Source: Okamejei kenojei (taxonomy: Eukaryota). From it: a DNA stretch of 64,000 nt. Every line of letters begins with the position of its first letter. The first letter of the stretch is position 1. Below are positions 60 through 54,674 of this stretch, one piece after another. The notes under the pieces were generated by a model. It was not told the DNA's origin and did not search any database. It saw nothing but the letters and a program-made list of their open reading frames with translations. A program made the position numbers and the translations under genes. Location of the stretch: the NCBI GenBank assembly GCA_035221665.1, contig CM069137.1:80166001-80230000 (forward strand). The letters run 5' to 3'.

Positions 60-691
60 AAGACAATGGAACGGTGGACCGCTTCAGTCCGGAAAACCGC
101 GGACAAGCGGCAAATCTGCGCGGGAGTCGTGTAGCCCCGTAGGAGCGGCAGGCACCGACTACCTACCTAGGTTCCTTAGACATCTCCTCGACGATGTGCG
201 GACTGATGGTAGAAGCCCCAATTCTTCATCAGAACTTGGGGAAGTCGCCGTCCGCAAATAGTGGCGACAGTCGCATAGCTCATATGGAGCGAATGGTGGA
301 GCAGCTGCTCGAAAGGGACCTTCTCCATTAAGAACGTGTGTCTATAGGATCCAGAAGACACACAGCAGAACTGCCAAGCATCTCTCCCTCTTCAATAGGG
401 AGTGCCAGAAGTCAGGCATTAGCTGACTTTGAAGAGGGGTTGGTGCAAGAACCTGTGTTGCAAGAGATGCCTGAAGAGGAACTTCTGGAAGATGTGTCGA
501 AGTTCGCCCAAGCAGCACAATCAGGGCAACCTCTTCAGCCTAGGCTAACGGCCAGTATCAATTATTTAACTACACACCAGCTGCAGGAACAGGTGATCAC
601 GGAGACTACCAACAAATACAAAGCTCCGGAAAATTGTGTGTTGCTCAATGTCCCTACGTCAACACACCCATCTGGGGAACCATGGAGGTAA
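60..691 (+). pseudogene. DIRS gag-like ORF remnant
   Basis: Lies upstream of RT; contains 'KYKAPENCVLLNVP', resembling DIRS gag; frameshifted. Confidence 0.55.
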
Positions 692-719
692 GGGGGTCTG
701 GTTCTCTTGGGAGTGCTGC

Positions 720-2600
720 ATGTATAACCTCACAAGTAGGAGGGAGATTGCGTACATTCTGGGATGCATGGGGATCTATAACTTCTGACACTATATTACA
801 AAGTATTCAGGGTTATGAAATTGAATCCATAAATGGACACCTTCCCCCAGCTCAGCATGTACCTAACTGGAAATTTGCACTTTCTCACAAAGCAAACGTG
901 GAAGGACATGCGGAACTATTAAGGTTACACACCAAGGGGGTTATAGAAAAAACGACACATGAACCTCTTGAGTTTGTATCTAACATCATTACTAAAACTA
1001 AAAAAGATGGTGGATGTCGTATCATAATTGATTTAACCCACTTGAATACCTTTGTACAATATACCCATTTCAAGATGGAAACATTTGAAACGGCTAAGCA
1101 ATTGATTTCCAGAGGGTGCTTCATGGCCTGCATCGATCTAAAAGATGCATACTATTCAGTACCTATATGGGAACATCACCGTAAATACTTAAAATTTGTC
1201 TGGATGGGGCAACTATGGCAATACAAAGCCCTACCTAATGGGCTTACAACAGCCCCTAGGTTATTTACCAAAATACTAAAACCAGTATTGGGATCTCTAA
1301 GAAGACAAAACCACATAGTCATGGCATATCTAGATGACATTTTAATTGTGGGAAAAACTTAGGTATTAGCTAAATTAGCAGTAACAGCTACCAAATCATT
1401 ATTTGAAAAACTAAGGTTTGTCATCCATCCAGACAAATCTAAGTTCAACCCCTCTGTGATTATGGACTATCTGGGATTCACAATTAACACCAATCATATC
1501 ATTATCACTATCCCAGGGAACAAAGCAACAGACATAATAGAGGCATGTAACAGCCTTGCTTGCGCCAGGAAACCGACTATTAGACATGTTGCTAAGGTGA
1601 TTGGGAAACTTGTAGCTACATTTCCAACTGCACAATTTGGCCCGTTACACTATCAAAACTTGCAAAGAGCAAAAATCTCAGCATTAAAAGCAAACGCTGG
1701 ACATTTTGACAGACCTATGCAGCTGCCAAACAAGGCAGAAATTGAGCTACAATGGTGGATTAGCAATATTAGTGATTTTTTAATCCCATCATTATATCAA
1801 ACCCATCAGTCGTGTTACAAACCGACGCAAATGCCCGGGGCTGGGGAGCTACCGACACCACTTCCAGTTGTGGCGGCAGATGGGATTTGCATGTGTCTAC
1901 TCTTCTTCAATCACAAGGTATAAACTATTTGGAAATGCTGGGAGCATTTCACAGGCTTACTGCACAAATCTGCATCATACGCATGTCCGTCTTCAAATAG
2001 ATAATACCACAGTGGTGGCGTATTTAAACCACATGGGAGGTATCAAGTTAATATCTTGTGATGAATTGGCAAACTTAATGTGGCTCTGGTGTATTGAAAG
2101 AAATATTTGGATATCAGCTATGTACCTTCCGGGTAAGCTCAATACAGTGGCGGACACCAGGTCACGAGTATTTAATGACAACATCGAGTGGATGTTGAAC
2201 CCCCAAATATTTGCTAAAATTATAGCCAAATATGGAACACCAGATATCGACCTCTTTGCGTCCAGGTTGAACCATCAGATACCAACATATGTCTCTTGGG
2301 AACCAGATCCTGGGACAGTGGTGATGGACGCATTCTCGCTACATTGAGGGAAATTGTTTTTCTATGCATTTCCCCCATTCTGCCTCATCAGTCGGGTATT
2401 ACAGAAAATTCAACTAGATTCTGCATCATGTATACTGATAATACCGACTGGCCCACACAACCATGGTACCCGGTGATCCTCAACATGATGAAAGAACCAT
2501 GGGTACAGGTTACCAAATGCCCGAATTTGGTAACCAATCCCATAACAGGTGAAAATCATCTGTGCCATGGTCATCTGAACCTGTTAGCTTGCAGGTTCTG
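720..2600 (+). pseudogene. DIRS pol: reverse transcriptase + RNase H + DNA N6-adenine methyltransferase-like domain (disrupted)
   Basis: RT motifs GGRL, RIIIDL, IDLKDAYYSVPI, LPNGLTTAPRLFTK, YLDDIL. RNase H motifs TDA..GWGA, INYLEM, IDNTTVVAYLN, LPGKLNTVAD. MT motifs DLFASRLN and YAFPPF (~2362-2380). In-frame TAG at 1360-1362 plus frameshifts. Confidence 0.92.
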
Positions 2601-3557
2601 AAGAGGCCATTACTGGAATTCGGGCTGTCAACAAGAATCATGGACATCATAACAGCATCGTGCAGAGAGTCCACAAGAAAGCAATAATTCACCCACATAA
2701 GGAAATGGGAGGCCTTCTGTAGTCGGACCAAGACCACCTACAACTCTGCTACGATCACCATTGTGCTGGAATTCCTCGCGGTCCTTCATTATGATGAGGG
2801 CCTCAGTTACAGTGCCATAAACAGTGCCAGGAGTGCACTGTCATCCTATCTCAACATTGGAGTGGGATCTCACCAGCTGGTATCTAAACTCATGAAGGGT
2901 ATATTCAATTCCAACCCTCCCCAACCACGATATAATATTACCTGGGATATTGGGGTTGTGTTGTCCCTACTCAGGTGATGTTCGCCTATGTTGGATTTAC
3001 CACTGGACAAACTCACCTTCAAAGTGGTGATGTTAATTGCACTGACCACATCACAACGGGTCCAGACTCTACATAAACTAAAACTGGATAGAATGGTCTC
3101 GACCCCCAATAAATTGACTTTCTTTATAGTTGAGTTACTTAAACAACACATGTCTGGATCTACAGGTATGACATTGGAATTCCTAGCATACCCCATTGAT
3201 GTAATACTCTGTATAGCCACCTATCTCCGACATTATATCAATGTCACACACAACATCAGGAAAATGGAGATGGGTCTGTTTATCAGCTATAACAACCCAC
3301 ATCACAGGGTGATGGTGCAGACTATCTCCAGGTGGCTCAGGGTGGGTTTGGGTGCAGCAGGTATAGACACTAACATTTTAATATCTCATTCTACCAGGGC
3401 TGCATCCACATCAGCGGCGAGGACCATGGAGGTACCCACGGATCATGTCCTCGCAACAGCGGGCTGGGCCAGTGAAAGTACATTTCAGCGTTTTTATAAC
3501 AAACCTGTGGCCGCTCCCGCAACGTTTGCGGATTCAGTTTTAAGTGCTGTTCCCTAA
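2600..3557 (+). pseudogene. DIRS tyrosine recombinase (disrupted)
   Basis: Motifs YSAINSARSALS, LIALTTSQRVQTL, HSTRAASTS and AGW.SESTFQRFY.K (R, HxxR, W, Y catalytic residues). Internal stops near 2687 and 2977. Confidence 0.92.
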
Positions 3558-6699: not shown

Positions 6700-6753
6700 G
6701 GAGTGGAAGATTACAACCTTCACGTTGTCCGCCCTGTTTCGACGAATGCAATC
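6700..6753 (+). ncRNA. Minimal HDV-like ribozyme lacking P4 (mutated copy)
   Basis: P1 GGAGTGG/CCGCCCT, P2 GATTACA/TGCAATC, P3 ACC/TGT, L3 TTCACGT, J4/2 C-GAA. One mismatch each in P1, P2 and P3 relative to the family consensus. Confidence 0.7.
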
Positions 6754-6840
6754 AAGCCGGTGTGCACAATCAAATAAGATCAAATAGAACAAGTTGTCCT
6801 ACAACTTTAGGCTGTGCATGCCATCCGCAGGAAGAAGAAG
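6700..6840 (+). mobile_element. ~140-bp short retroposon with minimal HDV-like ribozyme head and (AAG)n tail, copy 1
   Basis: Homologous to 45955-46095 and 54542-54674; inserted in a V-SINE head; ends gaagaagaag. Confidence 0.85.
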
Positions 6841-8247
6841 CGCCAGAGACCCGGGTTCGAACCTGACTATGGGTACTTTTTCTGTACAGAGTTTGTATTT
6901 TCTCCCCATGACCTGTGTGGGGTTTCTCCGGGATCTACAGTTTTTCTTCCAGCACTCCAAAAACATACAGGTTTGTAGGTTAATTGGCTTGGTATAATTT
7001 TAAATTGTCCCTAGTGTATGTAAGATAACATTTGTGTATGGCGATTGTTGGTCGTAACGGACTAGTTGGAACGAAGAGCCTATTTTGGCGCTGTATCTCT
7101 AAATGAATTAGAGTTTTAGAGTCATACAGCATGGAAATAAGCCCTTCAGTCCAACTTGCCCATGCCATTCAAGCTCCCCTATATGCACTATTCCCATCTG
7201 CCCATGTTTGGCCTATATCCCTCTAACCCTTTCCTATCCATGTACCTGTTCTTTTAAATGGTATAGCACCTGTGTCAAATACATCCATTGGCAGCCAGTT
7301 TCATTTATCCCCTCAGGATAACTCAGGTCCTCAAGACTTGGCAATATCCTTGTGAATCTTCTGTGCACAATCTCCATTGTAACAACATTCTTCCAATAGC
7401 AGGGTGACCAAAACTGAATACAATACTCTAAATACGGCCTCACCAATGTCTTGTACAACTGTAACATGACCTCCAAACCTCTCTACCCAGTACCCTGACT
7501 GAAAAAAGCTAATGTACCAAAAGCCTTCTTAACCACCCCGGCTACCTGAGACGCCACTTTCAGGACACTATGTACATGCAGTCCTTAATCCCTCTGCTCT
7601 ACCACACTTCCCAGGGCCTTGCCATTCACTGTGAAGGTCCTGCCCTGGTTTGACTTCCCAAATGCAATACCTCGCACTTAACTTCATTAAACTCCATTAA
7701 CCACTCCTCAGACCACTTGCTCAGCGGATCAAGATCCTGCTGTAATTTTTGATAACCATAATCTCTATTTACCATACCACCTACTTTAGTGTCATCTGTA
7801 AACTTACTAATCATGCCTTGTACATTCTCATCCAAAACTCAATCAGGTTCACGATACACAATCTCCCAAGTACAAAACCATGCTGACTATCCCTAATCAG
7901 CCTCTGTCAATCCAAACGCATATATATCTTAAGGGCCTGTCCCACTTGGGCGACCTAATCCGTGAGTTCTGGCAAGTTTGCCCTCGACCCATACTCGCAG
8001 CGTGTTCGACACGAGGTCGTAGGAGGTCTTCGTAACTCTCCTTCATGCTCAAGAGTGGTCTCCGTGTACTCGAGGCCTCGGTAGGTCGCGCCGTTTTTTC
8101 CAATGTTAAAAAATGCCCGCGAGTAAAAAAAGGTCGCCATGGAAAAAATTGATACTTTTTTTACTCATAGGTTTAGTCGTAGTAGGTTGTAGTAGGTCAG
8201 AGTAGGTCGGCATGTTAGTCGTAGGTAATCGAGGGTTGTCATAGGTA

Positions 8248-11200
8248 CTTCTTCGAGTCCGTTGCAATCTCAGATGTCGTTCTGCCAGTATCTGGCGCAG
8301 GTCACAGCTGGTCGGTTCAGCCAGGTCCTGGGGGCTGCACTGGGGGGCGTCGTCACACTCCAGTAGGTGGGACATTGTCTGTACTGCCTGGTAGTTCCAT
8401 GCTTTCATAGGTGCTTTGCACCTCCCCTGCTCCACTCGTAAACTGTTGAGGGTCTTCCAGGTTGGCCATGGGAGGTCGTGCCCGCTGGCGAGGCATTCAG
8501 TCGGAGTGATTCCTCTCTCCATCCAGTCGTGGGCTCGTGTGTTGAGCTGGTTCCATTCATCTTTCCAAATGTTGATCCTTGCTGTTTCTTTGGTTGTCTG
8601 GAGAGGTGGGACTGTCTGCAAGAAACTGGCTCTGGATTTCAGTCGGGGTGGAGGTGCTGTGTGTCCGTGCAGGGGGTGCCTGGTATCGATCTCCTGTGCT
8701 CTCCACTCATCTTGGGCGATGATGGATCGTCTAATATATGGGGGGGGGGGGCAATACCAGCTAGGGCGTAGAGGCACGGGACTGGCGTTGTCTTTATGCA
8801 TCCATTGATGATGCGGCAGGTGTTGTTGAGGGCTGTGCCAACCAGTTTGGTGTGATGGGAGCGGCTCCAGCTTGAGCACGCATATTCAGCTGTGGAGAAG
8901 CACAGGGCCAGGGCAGTTGCGCGGATGGTTGGTGGATCAGCGCCCCACTTTGAGTTTACCAGTTTGCGCAGGATGTTGTTGCGAGTGTTGACCTTGGCTT
9001 TGGTGTTCTGAAGGTGGGTTTTGAAAGAGAGTGTCCTGTCGAGTGTGACTCCGAGGTACACGGGGTGGAAGTGGTTGGAGAGTTCGTGGCCATCCCATGA
9101 GACGCTCAGTTGTTTTCCTGCATCTCGATTTTTAAGGTGGAAGCTGCATAGTTGGGTTTTTGATGGGTTGGGTTTCAGGTGGTTGTTATTGTAGTAGGTT
9201 GTCATCTCTTGGAGGGCGCTTCCCAGGACATACTCGATCTTCTGGAAGTTCTCCTGTTGGGTGGTGATGCAGAGGTCATCAGCATAGATGAAGCGGCGGC
9301 ATTGTGGGGGAAGTGGTTGGTCGTTGGTGTAGATGTTGAAGAGGACGGGGCCAGTACGCTGCCTTGTGGTAGGCCATTCTTTTGGGCTTTCCATTTGCTC
9401 TTCTTGCCGTTTAGTTGAACGAAGAAGCGCCTGCTGTTGAGAAGGCTTTTGATGACTTGGCACAGGTCGAGGTCACCAGTCATGTCAAAAAGTTTCCTGA
9501 TCATGGTGCGGTGCTGGACAGTGTCGTAGGCAGCGGTGAGGTCTATGAAAGCTGCTCCGGTGATGAGTTTGCACTCAAAACCGTCCTCAATGTGTTCAGT
9601 AGCTGCCCGGCACAGGAGCGGCCAGAGCGGAAGCCAGCTTGATCTTTAGTAAGCTTGGAGTCTATAAGTGGCATAAGCGTTGGAGTAGTAGCCTCTCGTA
9701 GAGCTTGTAGGTGATGCAGAGGAGGGAAATGGGTCTGTAGCTCTTTGGGGATGATGGGTCCTTTCCAGGTTTGGGAATTGCGACAGTCTTGGCCTTTCTC
9801 CATACAGGTGGGGTGCCCATGCATGAGTTCAGCATTGCTAAGAGCCAGGTCTATGCTTTAGGTCCCAGGTGCTGTATCATTTCCGTCAGTACATCATCGA
9901 TTCCTGCTGCTTTCCCAGGTTTCAGCATGCTCATTGCAGCTTCGAGTTCTTCTAGGTCGAAGGGCTTGGTGAGAGCGCTGGCTGGTTGTAGGCGGTCTGT
10001 TACCGCTGTCCGGCGGTATTCTCCTGTGGGTCTGCGCCGGTTTTGGCTACAACCGTTTGCCACCAGCTGTGCTGCAACTGAGTTTGCTGTGACTGTTGTG
10101 AGTGTGGGCGGTGTGGTATGGTCTTCACCGAGGCGGTGGATTGTGGCCCATGCCTTCCTGCTGTTATTGTTATTCTATCAACTCCTTCCAGACTTGCCTT
10201 CGGTCCTCCCCGACTGTGTTCAACAGGATCTCTCCGAGTTCCATGGTGGTGGAGGAGAAAGGGCCCTCGTGGTGTGCCCTGTGGTAGGCTTTCAGTAGAT
10301 CGCTGGATGTTTCCGACAGCCCGGGGATGTACTCGGTCTGGCATCCTCTTGGTATATGTTGCCTGGCTGACCTTTTCAGCAGTTCTGTGAACATGGTATA
10401 GTTGTTGGGGTGTGATGGAATACTGGGGATGGAGTCTTCGATCTCCTGTTGGAATGACAGCCAGTCGGCCTTCCGCAGATTTTCCCCTTCTGCAGAAGGG
10501 GACGGTTGTTGCTTGGAGAGCGGATCGGATGGTTATGGTGATTGCCTGGTGTTGCGTATGGGGGATAGGGTCCAGGACCTCTTTCACAGCTCTGGATGAT
10601 AGTTCGCTGCTCACACAAACAAGGTCTGGGTTATATCCTCGTTTCCATCTGGCACTGTGGAAAGATTTTGGCAGTTTGGCGCATGGATCAGGGTCAGGTG
10701 TTTCGACTCGAGCCAGGTTTCGACTTCATCTCCATATTGATTGTTCACTTCATAGCCCCACATGAGCTATGGGCATTGAAGTCCCCAATGCTAATGTGGC
10801 ATTTCCTCTTGCATCTGTCTGGCAGTTCAGGGTGGAGGAACGGACTTTGGGGGGGTTTATACACTGATGTGACAGAGATGTTTGGGAGGGCAACTGTGAT
10901 GGTTTCCATTTGCCCTTCGGTGGTGTGGGTGCAGACCTCTTCGATCGCGAGGTTTGGTCTGCTGAATACAGCTGACCCATACTGTCTGTGTCGGATCTCG
11001 GCCACCAGCTTCATTCCAGGGATGGCTGGTCGGTGTTGTGTAGGGCCGGTGTGGGTTTCCTGCATGCACACTATGTCGAAGCCTTTGGCCGCTGTCGCTA
11101 GTATGTCTGCCTTGCATCTGGAGAAGCCTTCAATATTGATTGAGGCGATTGAAAGTGCAGGCCCCGGGGAGGGCGAGTGTCTGTGGCGTGTCGGCATGGT

Positions 11201-11321
11201 CATCTAGTAGATTGCTTGGGTAAGTATACAGATATTGGCCCACTGGTGGTAATAATATCAGATTATACCATTCAGTGTTTCCCAGGCTGCACCACGGGGA
11301 GGTTTCTGTATTAGCAGCCCC
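8248..11321 (-). mobile_element. Full-length RTE-X/RTE-clade LINE (APE endonuclease + RT), frameshifted
   Basis: ATG at 11203. APE motifs SINIEG, CMQETH, SVYKPP, GDFNAH, PHTQH; RT motifs GLPQGSVLAP, LFNIY, YADD; C-terminal QTMSHLLEC. Stop at ~8270, very short 3' UTR and (AAG)n tail. Confidence 0.9.
11226..11320 (-). ncRNA. HDV-like self-cleaving ribozyme at the 5' end of the RTE-X LINE
   Basis: Minus strand: P1 GGGCTGC/GCAGCCT (G1.U wobble), P2 ATACAGA/TCTGTAT, P3 ACC/GGT, L3 TCCCCGT, P1.1 GG, P4 CACTG..TGGT/ACCA..CAGTG, J4/2 GGCCAAT. Coincides with the element boundary. Confidence 0.9.
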
Positions 11322-13019
11322 TCGAAGGCAGTCAAGGTGGTCGTAGATATTCTTCATCATAGTCGAAGGGCGGTCTTCACTCTCCACTATTCGGTGTCCA
11401 ATTTTACCAAAGTTAGTCGTAGCTAGTCGAAGCTGGTCTTCAACATAGTCGAAGGAGGTCGTAGGAGGTCTTCTACATGTCATTTTTTCAAACTCTTCTA
11501 AACTCGCCAATTAGGTCGCCCAAGTGGGACAGCCCCTTTATACTCTCCAGCAATATTTCCCAGGCAGCCCCTCTTAAATAGAAACACAAATGTAACCACC
11601 TTCCAGTCAAGCCGCACCTCACCCGTGTCTAATAACGATTGATGTATTTCAGCCAGGGTACCTGCAACTCCTTCTCTAGCTTCCCACAGTATCTTCGGAT
11701 TTATCTGATGAGCCTGGAGATTTATCTACCTTCACACACTTTAGGACATCCAGCACATCCTCGACTGTGATACAGACTGTTCTCAAGCCATCTTCATTAA
11801 CTCCCAAATTCCCCAGTCTGCATGGTAAAACAAAGACATACCCATTGAGGACCTTGCCCATCTCCTGCAGCTCCACACAGAGATGACCACTTTCTGAAGG
11901 GCCATAGGTTCTCTCTAATTACCCACTTTCCCTTAATGTACATACAATCTCTTTGAGTTTTCTTTAATATTATCTAGCAGAGCAGATGGAGATATTGTGG
12001 AATTTAAATAAATCTAGAATTAAAATTGTTATATCATTGAGTATAAATTGTATACCTGCATTTTTCAAAGGAAATTTGTTATCCTTACCTAGTCCATTCT
12101 CTCATAAATATACTTCTCTTCATGGTTTAGGAGCGATTGGATTTGAATAATATATGCTGGCAAATCCATGTGAATGCATAAGAAAGAACTATATACTTGA
12201 AAAGATTGTACAATCAGATCAGAAAGGATAAATCAAGCCAGGTTTATTTTAAATAAAATAGAACTGAGTTGCATTCATGTTTCACAAGAAAGTAAATGCA
12301 CAAAAAAAAAAAAAAAAGATAAAAGAATTATAGATCGTGTTAAAAAAAGACCCTTTGTTAAAAGTACTTCATTCACATTTTGTTGGCTGAACTGATTTTT
12401 AATGAAGGACCCTTCCATGGACATCTTGCTAGTAGCTACGACAATTCCTATGTTAATCAGAACTGAACTAAGGAAATGGTTGTATTTATTTCATATTTGT
12501 GGCCACAGGGGGAATGGAGCTGCTCATCAACCAAATTCAAGGACACAATACCATTGCAAGCAATGAATGACAGGGAGATGGTGATGTGTTTTGCCAGATA
12601 TTGGTGGAACATTCACGTTATGTCTATGAGATGACCATGTTTTCCCTGTGTTCTTCTGGTTGAAATGTGCCATGGCATGACTTTCATGGTGGATGCAAAT
12701 TGGAAACCTTCAGCCCAATTTGTTGAAACTTCTGGGAAGTGGTGAATGGAGGGATAGATAAACATCGGAACAGAGGAGAAAGAGAAAAATATTAGAATAT
12801 GAAGAGGATGAACTAGAGTCTAATTAGGTACAGTAAGAGCAAATTGAGATAAGACGAAAGAAAAATAACTTAGCACTTCCAAACACTCAAGCAACAATTT
12901 CCAATGATAGGATTGAGAGTGAATAGATTAAATGGACCTTGGTCCAGTAACTGGTTTGGCCTTATATTTTACAACTTCAATCAAGGAAAACATCTTAAGC
13001 CACAAATGTGACAATACCA

Positions 13020-32130: not shown

Positions 32131-32384
32131 TGAGTATGTTAGGCATTCATCCATGATATGGGCTCAGCTTGAGTATTTGTCTCCCTTTTACTCTGGGAGG
32201 AGAGATCTTCCCTTGCCTGACTTGCTGCCTTGTCCTCCTGTTCTGCATTTTGCAACTCAGCCATTCTACTCTTAAGTTCTCACACTCTCTCCAATTCACT
32301 CATCAGTTAGAGTTAGGAGGGTTACACAAAAAGCTGGAGAAACTCAGCGGGTGCAGCAGCATCTAAGAGGCGAAGGAGATAGGC

Positions 32385-32412
32385 GACGTTTCGGGTCGAG
32401 ACCCTTCTTCAG
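32385..32412 (-). ncRNA. Minimal hammerhead ribozyme core in pLTR
   Basis: CTGAAGA-A-GGGTC-TC-GACCC-GAAA-CG-TC on the minus strand. Confidence 0.65.
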
Positions 32413-33469
32413 ACTGGTCAGGGATCAGGGAAACGAGAGATATAGACAGTGATGTGGAGAGATAAAGAACAATGAATGAAAGATATGCAAAAAAGTATCG
32501 ATGATAAAGGGAACAAGCCATTGTAAGCTGTTTGTGGTGTGAAAATGAGAAGCTAGTGCGACTAGGGTGGGGGAGGGAGATAGAGATAGAGGGAATGCCA
32601 GGGCCCGAGGGCTGAGGGAGAGGTGGGAAGGGGAGGAGACAGCAAGGGCTAACAGAATTGAGAAAATTCAATATTCAAGCCCTAAAGGATGCAGACTCCC
32701 CAAGCGGAATATGAGGTGCTGCTTCCTCCAACTTGCGGTGTTGCTCACTCTGGCCGTGGAGGAGGCCCAGGACCGAGAGGTCGGATACGGAATGGGAGGG
32801 GGAGTTGAAGTGCTACCGGGAGGTCGGGTTGGTTTTTGCGGACCGAGCGGAGGTGTTCGGCGAAACGATCGCCAAGCCTCCGCTTGGTCTCACCGATATA
32901 GATCATCTGGCATCTGGAGCAGCGGATGCAGTAGATGAGGTTGGAGGAGGTGCAGGTGAACCTCTGTCGGACCTGGAAGGACTGCTTGGGTCCCTGAAAG
33001 GAGTGGAGGGGGGAGGTGAAGGGACAAGTGTTGCATTTCTTGCGGTTGCAAGGGAAAGTGCCCGGGGAAGGGGTAGAGCGGGAGGGGAGGGAAGAATTGA
33101 CAAGGGAGTTGCGGAGGGAGCGGTCTTTGCGGAAGGCAGACAACACCGCAAGTTGGAGGAACAGCACCTCATATTCCGCTTGGGGAGTCTGCATCCTTTG
33201 GGCTTGAACATTGAATTTTCTCAATTCTGTTAGCCCTTGCTGTCTCCTCCCCTTCCCACCTCTCCCTCAGCCCTCGGGCCCTGGCATTCCCTCTATCTCT
33301 ATCTCCCTCCCCCACCCTAGTCGCACTAGCTTCTCATTTTCACACCACAAACAGCTTACAATGGCTTGTTCCCTTTATCATCGATACTTTTTTGCATATC
33401 TTTCATTCATTGTTCTTTATCTCTCCACATCACCATCTATATCTCTCGTTTCCCTGATCCCTGACCAGT

Positions 33470-33497
33470 CTGAAGAAGGGTCTCGACCCGAAACGTC
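33470..33497 (+). ncRNA. Minimal hammerhead ribozyme core in pLTR
   Basis: CTGAAGA-A-GGGTC-TC-GACCC-GAAA-CG-TC; palindromic helix III; helix I weak. Confidence 0.65.
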
Positions 33498-33952
33498 GCC
33501 TATCTCCTTCGCCTCTTAGATGCTGCTGCACCCGCTGAGTTTCTCCAGCTTTTTGTGTCACCCTCGATTCTCCAGCATCTGCAGTTTCTTCGTTAACAAT
33601 TAGAGTTAGGAGTTGGCAACTTTATCTCGCTAACATCTCGGATGACATGTTTGTAGGTTAATTGGCTTTGGTAAAATAAATTGTCCACTGCATGTGTAGG
33701 TTAGTGTACGGGGTGATCGCTGGTCGGTGTGGACTCGGTGGGCTGAAGGGCTTTCTTCACTGCCTGCTGGACCTGCATGCCAACTTTCAGTGACCGGTGT
33801 ACAAGGACACCCAGGTCTCGCTGTACCAGGTCTCCCTTACCTAACCTAACCCCACTGAGATAATAATCTTCCCCTTTGTTTTTGCCACCAAAGTGGATAA
33901 CCTCACATTTATCTATATTATTCTTCTTACTGATGCCACCAGGGCGCAGTTA

Positions 33953-45875: not shown

Positions 45876-45952
45876 CACTCAGTGGATATACTCAGTGCAT
45901 CTCAGTGGATATTTTTAAAGCAGAGATAAATAGATTCTTGATTAGTACGGGT

Positions 45953-46006
45953 GTGGTGGAAGATTGCAACCTTCACGTGGTCCGCCCTGTTTCAACAAAT
46001 GCAATC
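45953..46006 (+). ncRNA. Minimal HDV-like ribozyme lacking P4
   Basis: P1 (GT)GGTGG/CCGCCCT, P2 GATTGCA/TGCAATC, P3 ACC/GGT, L3 TTCACGT, J4/2 C-AAA. Confidence 0.75.
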
Positions 46007-46095
46007 AACCTGGCGTGCACAATCAATAAGATCAAATAGAACAAGTTGTCCTATAAAGTTAGGCTGTGCACACCATACGCAAGAAGAAGAAGAAC
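45955..46095 (+). mobile_element. ~140-bp short retroposon with minimal HDV-like ribozyme head and (AAG)n tail, copy 2
   Basis: 14-bp TSD ATTAGTACGGGTGT (45941-45954, 46096-46109); (AAG)4 tail. Confidence 0.9.
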
Positions 46096-54541: not shown

Positions 54542-54674
54542 CTTCTTCTTCTTGCTTATGGCGTGCACAGCTTAAAGTTGTAGGACAACTTGTTCTATTT
54601 GATCTTTTTTGATTGTGCACGCTGGGTTCATTGCATTTGTCGAAACAGGGTGGACCACGTGAAGGTTGCAATCT
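54542..54674 (-). mobile_element. Ribozyme-headed short retroposon, copy 3 (lacks the first ~8 nt), inside a CR1 tail
   Basis: Minus strand: agattgcaaccttcacgtggtccaccctgtttcgacaaatgcaatg...gtgcacgccataagc(aag)4. Confidence 0.85.

What the first reader, a model, noticed from the sequence alone, without database searches (positions are those of the whole stretch)
11226..11321. Canonical HDV-like ribozyme forms almost the whole 5' UTR of a full-length RTE-X LINE
Seen (minus strand): GGGCTGC-TA-ATACAGA-A-ACC-TCCCCGT-GGT-GCAGCCT-GG-GAAA-CACTGAATGGT...ACCACCAGTG-GGCCAAT-A-TCTGTAT. All helices (P1, P1.1, P2, P3, P4) are intact. G1 at 11320 is at the element/MITE boundary, and the ATG (11203) lies ~22 nt after P2. 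It shares P3 ACC/GGT, L3 TYCMCGT and the (AAG)n tail with the 140-bp element. Known: RTE-clade LINEs can carry 5' HDV-like ribozymes. Inference: this LINE clade supplies the machinery for the short element. Their 3' ends differ (GGACTCG vs CCATACGC before AAG), so the direct partner may be a sister family.
Basis: partly seen in the sequence, partly recalled or inferred. Interest (0 to 1): 0.72.

Follow-up and report, generated by a model that had tools for sequence, protein, structure and literature searches.

The report
Ribozyme-headed Vingi LINE, not RTE-X
This is a broken full-length copy of a jumping gene, likely of the Vingi type, that begins exactly with an RNA fold predicted to cut itself out of host messages; four sister families in the same genome begin the same way, one of them with a close match to the mammalian CPEB3 ribozyme.

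Summary
Observation confirmed. Window 11320-11226 (-) has every HDV-ribozyme element (P1 with G1.U, two-pair P1.1, P2, P3, P4, catalytic C at 11238) and fills 95 of 117 nt before the ATG. 18 of 40 genomic matches start at G1, and the 17 checked have unrelated upstream flanks. (1) The LINE (11320-8248, single ORF, APE-RT-CCHC-type finger, no RNase H) is likely Vingi, not RTE-X: its RT groups with RNase H-bearing Ingi-type proteins; grouping with RTE is rejected (AU p=0.002). (2) The 140-bp element comes from a distant sister family B (38-40% protein identity), whose two ends it matches; it shares no significant sequence with this family. All five ORF-linked Vingi-type families found start with an HDV-like fold, with compensatory changes; one scores above Rfam's CPEB3 cut-off. 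Cleavage is untested. This copy is dead (7 frameshifts). 5' ribozymes are known for Ingi/L1Tc, R2 and RTE; my searches found none reported for Vingi. This scan has already noted the Vingi and CPEB3 link many times on other DNA.

The parts
11226..11320 (-). HDV-like ribozyme fold (nt 1-95 of the element); predicted cleavage 5' of G1 at 11320; catalytic C at 11238
11263..11271 (-). Two-codon upstream ORF (ATG GTA TAA) inside P4, out of frame with the main ORF
   Evidence: sequence; ATG positions
11204..11225 (-). 22-nt spacer between P2 and the ATG; three inverted copies elsewhere begin their inverted piece at nt 113 (window 11208)
8270..11203 (-). Single ORF, broken in this copy: APE endonuclease, reverse transcriptase, C-terminal CxC..H..C finger, no RNase H
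8248..8269 (-). 3' UTR ending GGACTC and (GAA/AAG)n tail of two units
11321..11537 (-). 5' part of the host MITE (terminal inverted repeat at about 11537-11510) into which the LINE inserted
7932..8247 (-). 3' part of the host MITE (terminal inverted repeat at about 7960-7932)
45950..46092 (+). 140-bp element: the two ends of family B, not of this family
54542..54674 (-). Second copy of the 140-bp family-B derivative (5' clipped)
6703..6840 (+). Third copy of the 140-bp family-B derivative

Best explanation
The 95 bases are the 5' end of a 3.1-kb single-ORF LINE that is likely a Vingi element, and they form an HDV-like fold predicted to cleave the RNA just before G1. Shown: the fold, its position at nt 1 of independent insertions, the single APE-RT-finger ORF, the tree position, and the same kind of head on four other ORF-linked families. 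Inferred from L1Tc and R2: a copy is read through from a host promoter; the ribozyme cuts at G1 and frees a unit-length RNA with an uncapped 5' end; the folded pseudoknot shields that end and helps start translation at the ATG 22 nt downstream; the protein binds the 3' end, nicks DNA and copies the RNA back to G1, giving 7-13 bp duplications. This copy's ORF is dead while its ribozyme is intact, so it could still cut a host transcript that runs through it on the minus strand. The 140-bp element is the two ends of family B and is likely moved by family B protein, not by this one.
For: All helices and core residues are present. 18 of 40 scored genomic matches start at G1; the 17 fetched have unrelated upstream flanks, mean identity 0.27 and maximum 0.50 over 30 nt. 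9 of 12 full-length copies have 7-13 bp duplications ending 0-3 nt before G1. The catalytic C is kept in 17 of 17 copies. Across six head types (A, B, C, D, F, H; a seventh, G, was dropped because that copy was mis-parsed) 40 of 42 P1 cells, 18 of 18 P3 cells and 36 of 36 P2 cells pair, with up to 5 pair types per column, and the first P1.1 pair changes from C-G to U-A in family C. Clade: the nearest non-chimeric long relatives are single-ORF proteins with RNase H; trees; AU test. Family F, in the same subclade as this family (SH-aLRT 98), has a head that matches the published Vingi-2_Gav 5' end at 52 of 59 positions outside the P4 loop (by eye). Partner: short element nt 1-76 is 87% identical to the family B head (E=3e-23) and nt 102-134 is 91% identical to its tail (E=4e-9); best match to this family is 11 nt, E=0.17. 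Function by analogy: PMC6765202, PMC4035085, PMC11331408.
Against: No cleavage data. The Rfam score is below every cut-off, and the folding z-score is only -1.2 (pseudoknots are not modelled). A pile-up at G1 is also what an internal promoter starting at nt 1 would give. The one raw RNA run had about 5 reads over the ribozyme, none over the ORF start and no pile-up of read starts. Copies within the family are 1.4-3.1% from their majority, so within-family conservation is descent, not selection; only 5 of 17 copies pass the strict descriptor. The cross-family parse picked the best-pairing register. No labelled Vingi, Ingi or RTEX protein was in the trees, and the RTE label rests on Pfam DUF6451 (my recall) and on motifs.
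Confidence: 0.85

Rival explanations
1. The head is both a ribozyme and an internal promoter, as Pr77 is in L1Tc, so the G1 end is set partly or mainly by transcription start.
For: The L1Tc head has both functions (PMC3383444, abstract start), and Ingi is the sister clade. Hundreds of dispersed copies need some source of transcription. Precise G1 ends fit either route.
Against: Head sequences of the five families share only the ribozyme core, with pairs kept through different letters. Among 9 copies with a duplication, 4 have no extra base before G1 and only 2 have a single extra G, which does not point to a capped RNA; the sample is small.
Confidence: 0.25
2. The fold no longer cleaves in this family and is kept as a stable 5' shield or as a binding site for the element's protein.
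For: For R2 templates a stable HDV-like fold improves insertion (PMC11331408 abstract). 6 of 40 matches end within nt 35-44, at the pseudoknot. Three inverted copies start next to the fold.
Against: The catalytic C, the G1.U pair, the L3 U and G and both P1.1 pairs are present; the catalytic C is present in all five ORF-linked families.
Confidence: 0.08
3. The LINE belongs to RTE-X (RTEX).
For: Single ORF of about 1000 residues, short-repeat tail and a 5' HDV-like ribozyme are also RTE traits. No RTEX protein was sampled.
Against: RT groups with RNase H-bearing Ingi-type proteins in two models; union with RTE rejected; no ORF1, whereas RTEX is contrasted with RTE by having one; no DUF6451; DNA anchor to Vingi-2_Gav through family F.
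Confidence: 0.04
4. This family's protein also moves the 140-bp element in trans.
For: Same clade, same AAG tail and similar duplication lengths (10-14 bp). An 11-nt word is shared between this family's 3' UTR and the short element's head.
Against: Both ends of the short element match family B and neither matches this family; the two proteins are 38-40% identical and lie in different subclades. The 11-nt match has E=0.17.
Confidence: 0.07

Closest known systems
Vingi non-LTR retrotransposons (PMC13708176 passages; PMC5786205 passages and supplement; the defining paper, Kojima 2011, was not held)
   Same: Compact single-ORF APE-type element, no RNase H, sister to Ingi; about 3.1 kb (Vingi-2_Gav is 3128 bp); gives short internally deleted derivatives.
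   Different: [quoted passage not shown] Yet the Vingi-2_Gav 5' end printed in its supplement reads by eye as one.
L1Tc/ingi with the Pr77 / L1TcRz HDV-like ribozyme, and NARTc, RIME, SIDER (PMC4035085, PMC6765202 passages)
   Same: HDV-like ribozyme at nt 1 of a dispersed single-ORF APE-RT LINE, about 12-bp duplications, short derivatives that keep both ends.
   Different: L1Tc encodes RNase H and lives in trypanosomes; its cleavage and promoter activity are shown by experiment, here neither is.
R2, RTE and Baggins HDV-like ribozymes (PMC6765202 passages; Ruminski 2011 not held, title only)
   Same: 5' ribozyme that frees the element from a co-transcript and is thought to aid translation start.
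   Different: Other clades; R2 is site-specific with another endonuclease; the RTE RT is distant from this one.
Mammalian CPEB3 ribozyme (Rfam RF00622; PMC4836649 passages)
   Same: Same fold. Sister family F heads score up to 66.8 bits against a cut-off of 35.
   Different: This family's head has a two-pair P1.1, a long P4 and no RF00622 match at E<=10; it is closer in core letters to the HDV model.

Membership tests
HDV-like ribozyme | Nested double pseudoknot: P1 (7 bp), P2, P3 (3 bp), P1.1, P4 | tested here: met
   By pairing; pairs kept across families with different letters
HDV-like ribozyme | Catalytic C in J4/2, G1.U pair, L3 U and G for the reverse wobble | tested here: met
   C at 11238; kept in 17 of 17 copies; roles from PMC4836649 passages
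HDV-like ribozyme | Score above an Rfam family cut-off | tested here: not met
   26.6 bits against 50 for RF00094, 16.9 against 44 for RF02682, 14.4 against 37 for RF01787; these models are lineage-specific
HDV-like ribozyme | Self-cleavage 5' of G1 | not testable with these tools
   RNA reads uninformative; element ends at G1 are consistent
Vingi clade | Single compact ORF with APE and RT | tested here: met
Vingi clade | No RNase H domain | tested here: met
   No RNase H in Pfam scans of three family-A ORF pieces and two full-length homologues
Vingi clade | RT sister to Ingi (RNase H-bearing) | tested here: met
   97/90 and SH-aLRT 92; the Ingi label is inferred from architecture, no named Ingi protein was in the tree
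Vingi clade | RT groups with named Repbase Vingi proteins | not testable with these tools
   No labelled protein available; indirect DNA anchor through family F and Vingi-2_Gav
RTE-X (RTEX) | RT in the RTE group | tested here: not met
   AU test rejects union with RTE, p=0.0017; RTEX itself was not sampled
RTE-X (RTEX) | ORF1 upstream of the RT ORF | tested here: not met
   ATG of the APE-RT ORF is 117 nt from the 5' end; feature from PMC3905857 passage
Autonomous partner of the 140-bp element | Shares 5' and 3' ends with the short element | tested here: not met
   Met by family B, not by this family
CPEB3 ribozyme family RF00622 | Match to the covariance model | tested here: not met
   No hit at E<=10 for this head; met by sister family F

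The most novel reading that the evidence does not exclude
An HDV-like ribozyme at nt 1 is a general, unreported hallmark of Vingi LINEs, and the mammalian CPEB3 ribozyme is a fossil Vingi 5' end: sister family F in this family's own subclade carries CPEB3-scoring heads on a near full-length element, and the published Vingi-2_Gav 5' end agrees with all 22 comparable CPEB3 positions named in PMC4836649. In addition, three independent inverted copies of this family start at nt 113, which would mean that the protein holds the RNA just behind the ribozyme next to the second DNA nick, explaining why short derivatives keep the 5' end.
Probability: 0.7. Interest if true: 0.8.

Novelty: new member of a known kind. 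Interest (0 to 1): 0.52.

Why it matters
It extends 5' self-cleavage from trypanosome Ingi/L1Tc to the Vingi clade of animals, with five natural head variants (about 54 to 95 nt) that can be assayed side by side. Vingi-1 from the anole is being developed as an RNA-only gene-insertion tool with its native 5' UTR, and the 2026 review read here mentions ribozymes for R2 only, so a ribozyme in that UTR would bear on template design. The clade also offers a testable origin for the CPEB3 ribozyme. This single copy is an ordinary dead insertion.

Tried and rejected
Rfam at gathering score: no hit in the window; at E<=10 the short element gives no ribozyme hit either. Energy folding is uninformative for a pseudoknot (z -1.2 and -0.45). 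RNA evidence: 24 runs listed, 4 laid; three are contigs, and the one raw run had about 5 reads over the ribozyme and no pile-up of starts, so there is no evidence for or against cleavage or expression. Solved structures: only distant L1, R2 and group II intron RTs. Labelled Vingi, Ingi or RTEX proteins were not obtained from three homologue searches. Short two-ended derivatives of this family: the 5 short or partial matches checked were inversions or large internal deletions, not 140-bp-type elements; the search was not exhaustive. Target-site duplication for the window copy: none. Family G head was dropped from the pair count because the copy used lacks the J4/2 junction; heads G and H showed no ORF downstream, so their link to Vingi is not shown. 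Trees: one search used 60 rows; one search left out 15 of them (long branches and near-duplicates) and added 2; the window-copy row spans frameshifts and its long branch is an artefact. Literature: Kojima 2011 and Ruminski 2011 were not held; patents, Repbase reports and bioRxiv supplements could not be searched and may already note a Vingi ribozyme.

Full report
Observation. P1 has 7 pairs with a G1.U wobble, P3 has 3, both P1.1 pairs form, P2 has 7 pairs plus an A-U pair past a bulged A, P4 is a long interrupted stem, and J4/2 holds the catalytic C at 11238. The ATG is at 11203, so the fold takes 95 of the 117 nt of the 5' UTR. A strict descriptor finds only this site in the window and none in 300 shuffled windows (written after seeing the site). 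Rfam gives no hit at gathering score; at relaxed threshold three of seven hits are HDV-type models on this site, best 26.6 bits, E=0.04.

The element. It runs from 11320 to 8248 and sits in a MITE with terminal inverted repeats. A genome search with its first 421 nt scored 40 of 44 candidates; 18 start at G1, the window copy included. The query itself began at G1, so I checked the flanks: 17 such copies share no upstream sequence (mean identity 0.27, maximum 0.50 over 30 nt). Full-length copies are about 3.12 kb and end in GGACTC plus an AAG repeat; 9 of 12 have 7-13 bp duplications, 4 abutting G1 and 5 with 1-3 extra bases. Eleven copies differ from their majority by 1.4-3.1%; the window copy has 10 internal indels, 7 frame-shifting, and no duplication. 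It cannot make the protein, but its ribozyme is intact.

Clade. The ORF has an APE endonuclease and an RT and no RNase H, and ends in a CxC..H..C finger. Its close homologues are mostly 960-1050 residue proteins on 3.0-3.6 kb contigs. The nearest non-chimeric longer relatives are single-ORF proteins of 1350-1570 residues with RNase H, several with a PHD finger. An RTE set was obtained through Pfam DUF6451 in this genome and its homologues (that DUF6451 marks RTE is my recall). In a 60-row RT tree the family and 18 homologues form a 100/100 clade, grouped at 97/90 with the RNase H-bearing proteins and apart from RTE; a mixture model on 47 rows agrees (99, 92, 99); forcing the clade with RTE is rejected, p-AU 0.0017. 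Vingi is defined as a compact single-ORF sister of Ingi without RNase H (PMC13708176, passages). RTEX is called an RTE-clade group and contrasted with RTE by its ORF1 (PMC3905857, passages). No named Vingi, Ingi or RTEX protein was in the trees. A DNA anchor helps: family F, in this family's subclade, has a head matching the printed Vingi-2_Gav 5' end at 52 of 59 positions outside the P4 loop (by eye; PMC5786205 supplement passage). I put Vingi at about 0.93.

Partner of the 140-bp element. The short element has three copies in the window and at least 2392 candidates in the genome. A search with a distant homologue revealed families B, C and D. Family B ends in the short element's tail and begins with its head; L253 is one 3040-bp copy with both. 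The short element's nt 1-76 are 87% identical to B's head and nt 102-134 are 91% identical to B's tail; against this family the best match is 11 nt at E=0.17. The proteins of A and B are 38-40% identical. Such two-ended derivatives are known for RTE, Ingi, Vingi and R2 (PMC5786205, passages).

A clade-wide head. All five families with an ORF link (A, B, C, D, F) begin with an HDV-like fold. With one real copy per head type, six types give 40 of 42 P1, 18 of 18 P3 and 36 of 36 P2 cells paired, with up to five pair types per column; the first P1.1 pair is C-G in five and U-A in family C. A seventh type was dropped as mis-parsed, type H has no shown ORF link, and the parser chose the best-pairing register, so the counts lean upward. 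This is the best evidence that the fold is selected; within family A the copies are too young to show it.

Mechanism. Shown: the fold, its place at nt 1, the ORF and the duplications. Inferred from L1Tc and R2 (PMC6765202, passages; PMC4035085, passages; PMC11331408, abstract): read-through transcription, cleavage at G1, protection of the uncapped end and help with translation start, then target-primed reverse transcription back to G1. An internal promoter in the same bases, as in L1Tc, is not excluded. RNA data did not help: one raw run gave about 5 reads over the ribozyme and no pile-up of starts.

Side results. Three duplication-flanked copies on three contigs carry an inverted 5' piece that starts at nt 113, between P2 and the ATG. 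Among 102 copies chosen by their 3' end, 3 had an inversion and 2 of these were at that site (6 of those loci did not reach the 5' junction). Counting two more found by the 5' search, 3 of 5 inversions start there. Six of 40 matches end within nt 35-44, at the pseudoknot. Both samples are small. Rfam's CPEB3 model finds 42 matches among 59 scored candidates, 30 above cut-off, best 66.8 bits; 2 of the top 20 are followed by a clear Vingi-type ORF, and L318 is near full length with a 10-bp duplication. The Vingi-2_Gav 5' end agrees with 22 of 22 comparable CPEB3 positions named in PMC4836649 (passages; by eye; three P4 positions are not comparable). I noticed this resemblance from recall; the genome search followed a lead from earlier scan notes.

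Novelty. PMC5786205 lists six ribozyme-bearing clades without Vingi. A search for Vingi and ribozyme gave 6 papers; three were read in passages and none links the two, and three concern alpha-synuclein (listing only). Searches on CPEB3 origin (listings) showed no such link; PMC8233481 contains neither 'transpos' nor 'origin', PMC10919898 was read in passages, and a bioRxiv CPEB3 structure paper gave no hits for my terms. PMC5753468, PMC3391268 and PMC3747384 were read in passages for clade terms. Kojima 2011 and Ruminski 2011 were not held, and patents, Repbase reports and bioRxiv supplements were out of reach. The scan's own notes report the Vingi and CPEB3 reading on many other stretches.

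Verdict. A real, canonical HDV-like head on a dead full-length LINE that is likely Vingi; a new member of a known kind. Interest 0.52, carried by the clade-wide pattern and the CPEB3 link rather than by this copy.

Noticed in passing
L313, L097, L125 (family A copies on G000 C4, C3, C8): Three independent duplication-flanked copies carry an inverted 5' piece starting at element nt 113, between the ribozyme and the ATG; two other inversions start at about nt 145 (L314) and 1157 (L360). Possible twin-priming hotspot.
   Followed up: partly
L024, L025, L026, L314, L097, L125: 5' truncations and ends of inverted pieces cluster at nt 35-44, where P1, P1.1 and P4 meet; reverse transcription may stall at the folded pseudoknot.
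   Followed up: partly
L293, L298/L318, L296 (G000 C14, C27): Family F: Vingi-type LINE whose head scores above the Rfam CPEB3 ribozyme cut-off; further CPEB3-like head types (L294, L295, L300, L306) have no ORF link shown.
   Followed up: partly
L246, L248, L250, L251 (family D): A younger Vingi-type family (two copies 99% identical) with a compact HDV-like head that shares P3 and L3 with this family; no fully open ORF among 7 fetched copies.
   Followed up: partly
L201-L220 (family C): Head with a variant core: L3 and P1.1 carry a U-A pair in place of C-G, and G1 pairs with C.
   Followed up: partly
L159, L257, L158: Internally deleted family B copies of intermediate size, and a family B copy with a short family-B derivative inserted near its own start.
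   Followed up: no
L238, L239, L244, L245: Decayed D-like heads with identical upstream flanks on several contigs, so spread by segmental duplication or inside another repeat.
   Followed up: no
window 11271-11263 (-): Two-codon upstream ORF inside P4, present in most copies.
   Followed up: no
window 8271-8261 (-) and the short element's head: An 11-nt word is shared between this family's 3' UTR and the P2 strand of the family B head; E=0.17, probably chance.
   Followed up: partly
window 11537-11321 and 8247-7932: Very abundant MITE of about 530 bp with terminal inverted repeats and internal 10-11 bp repeats; TTAA-like flanks suggest a Kolobok or piggyBac type (recalled, untested).
   Followed up: no
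window 544-3557 (+): ORF pieces with an RT (E=3e-13) and a tyrosine recombinase (E=5e-7): likely a DIRS/Ngaro-type retrotransposon remnant (label recalled).
   Followed up: no
window 32317-33565: 369-nt inverted repeat, 99% complementary, 511 nt apart.
   Followed up: no
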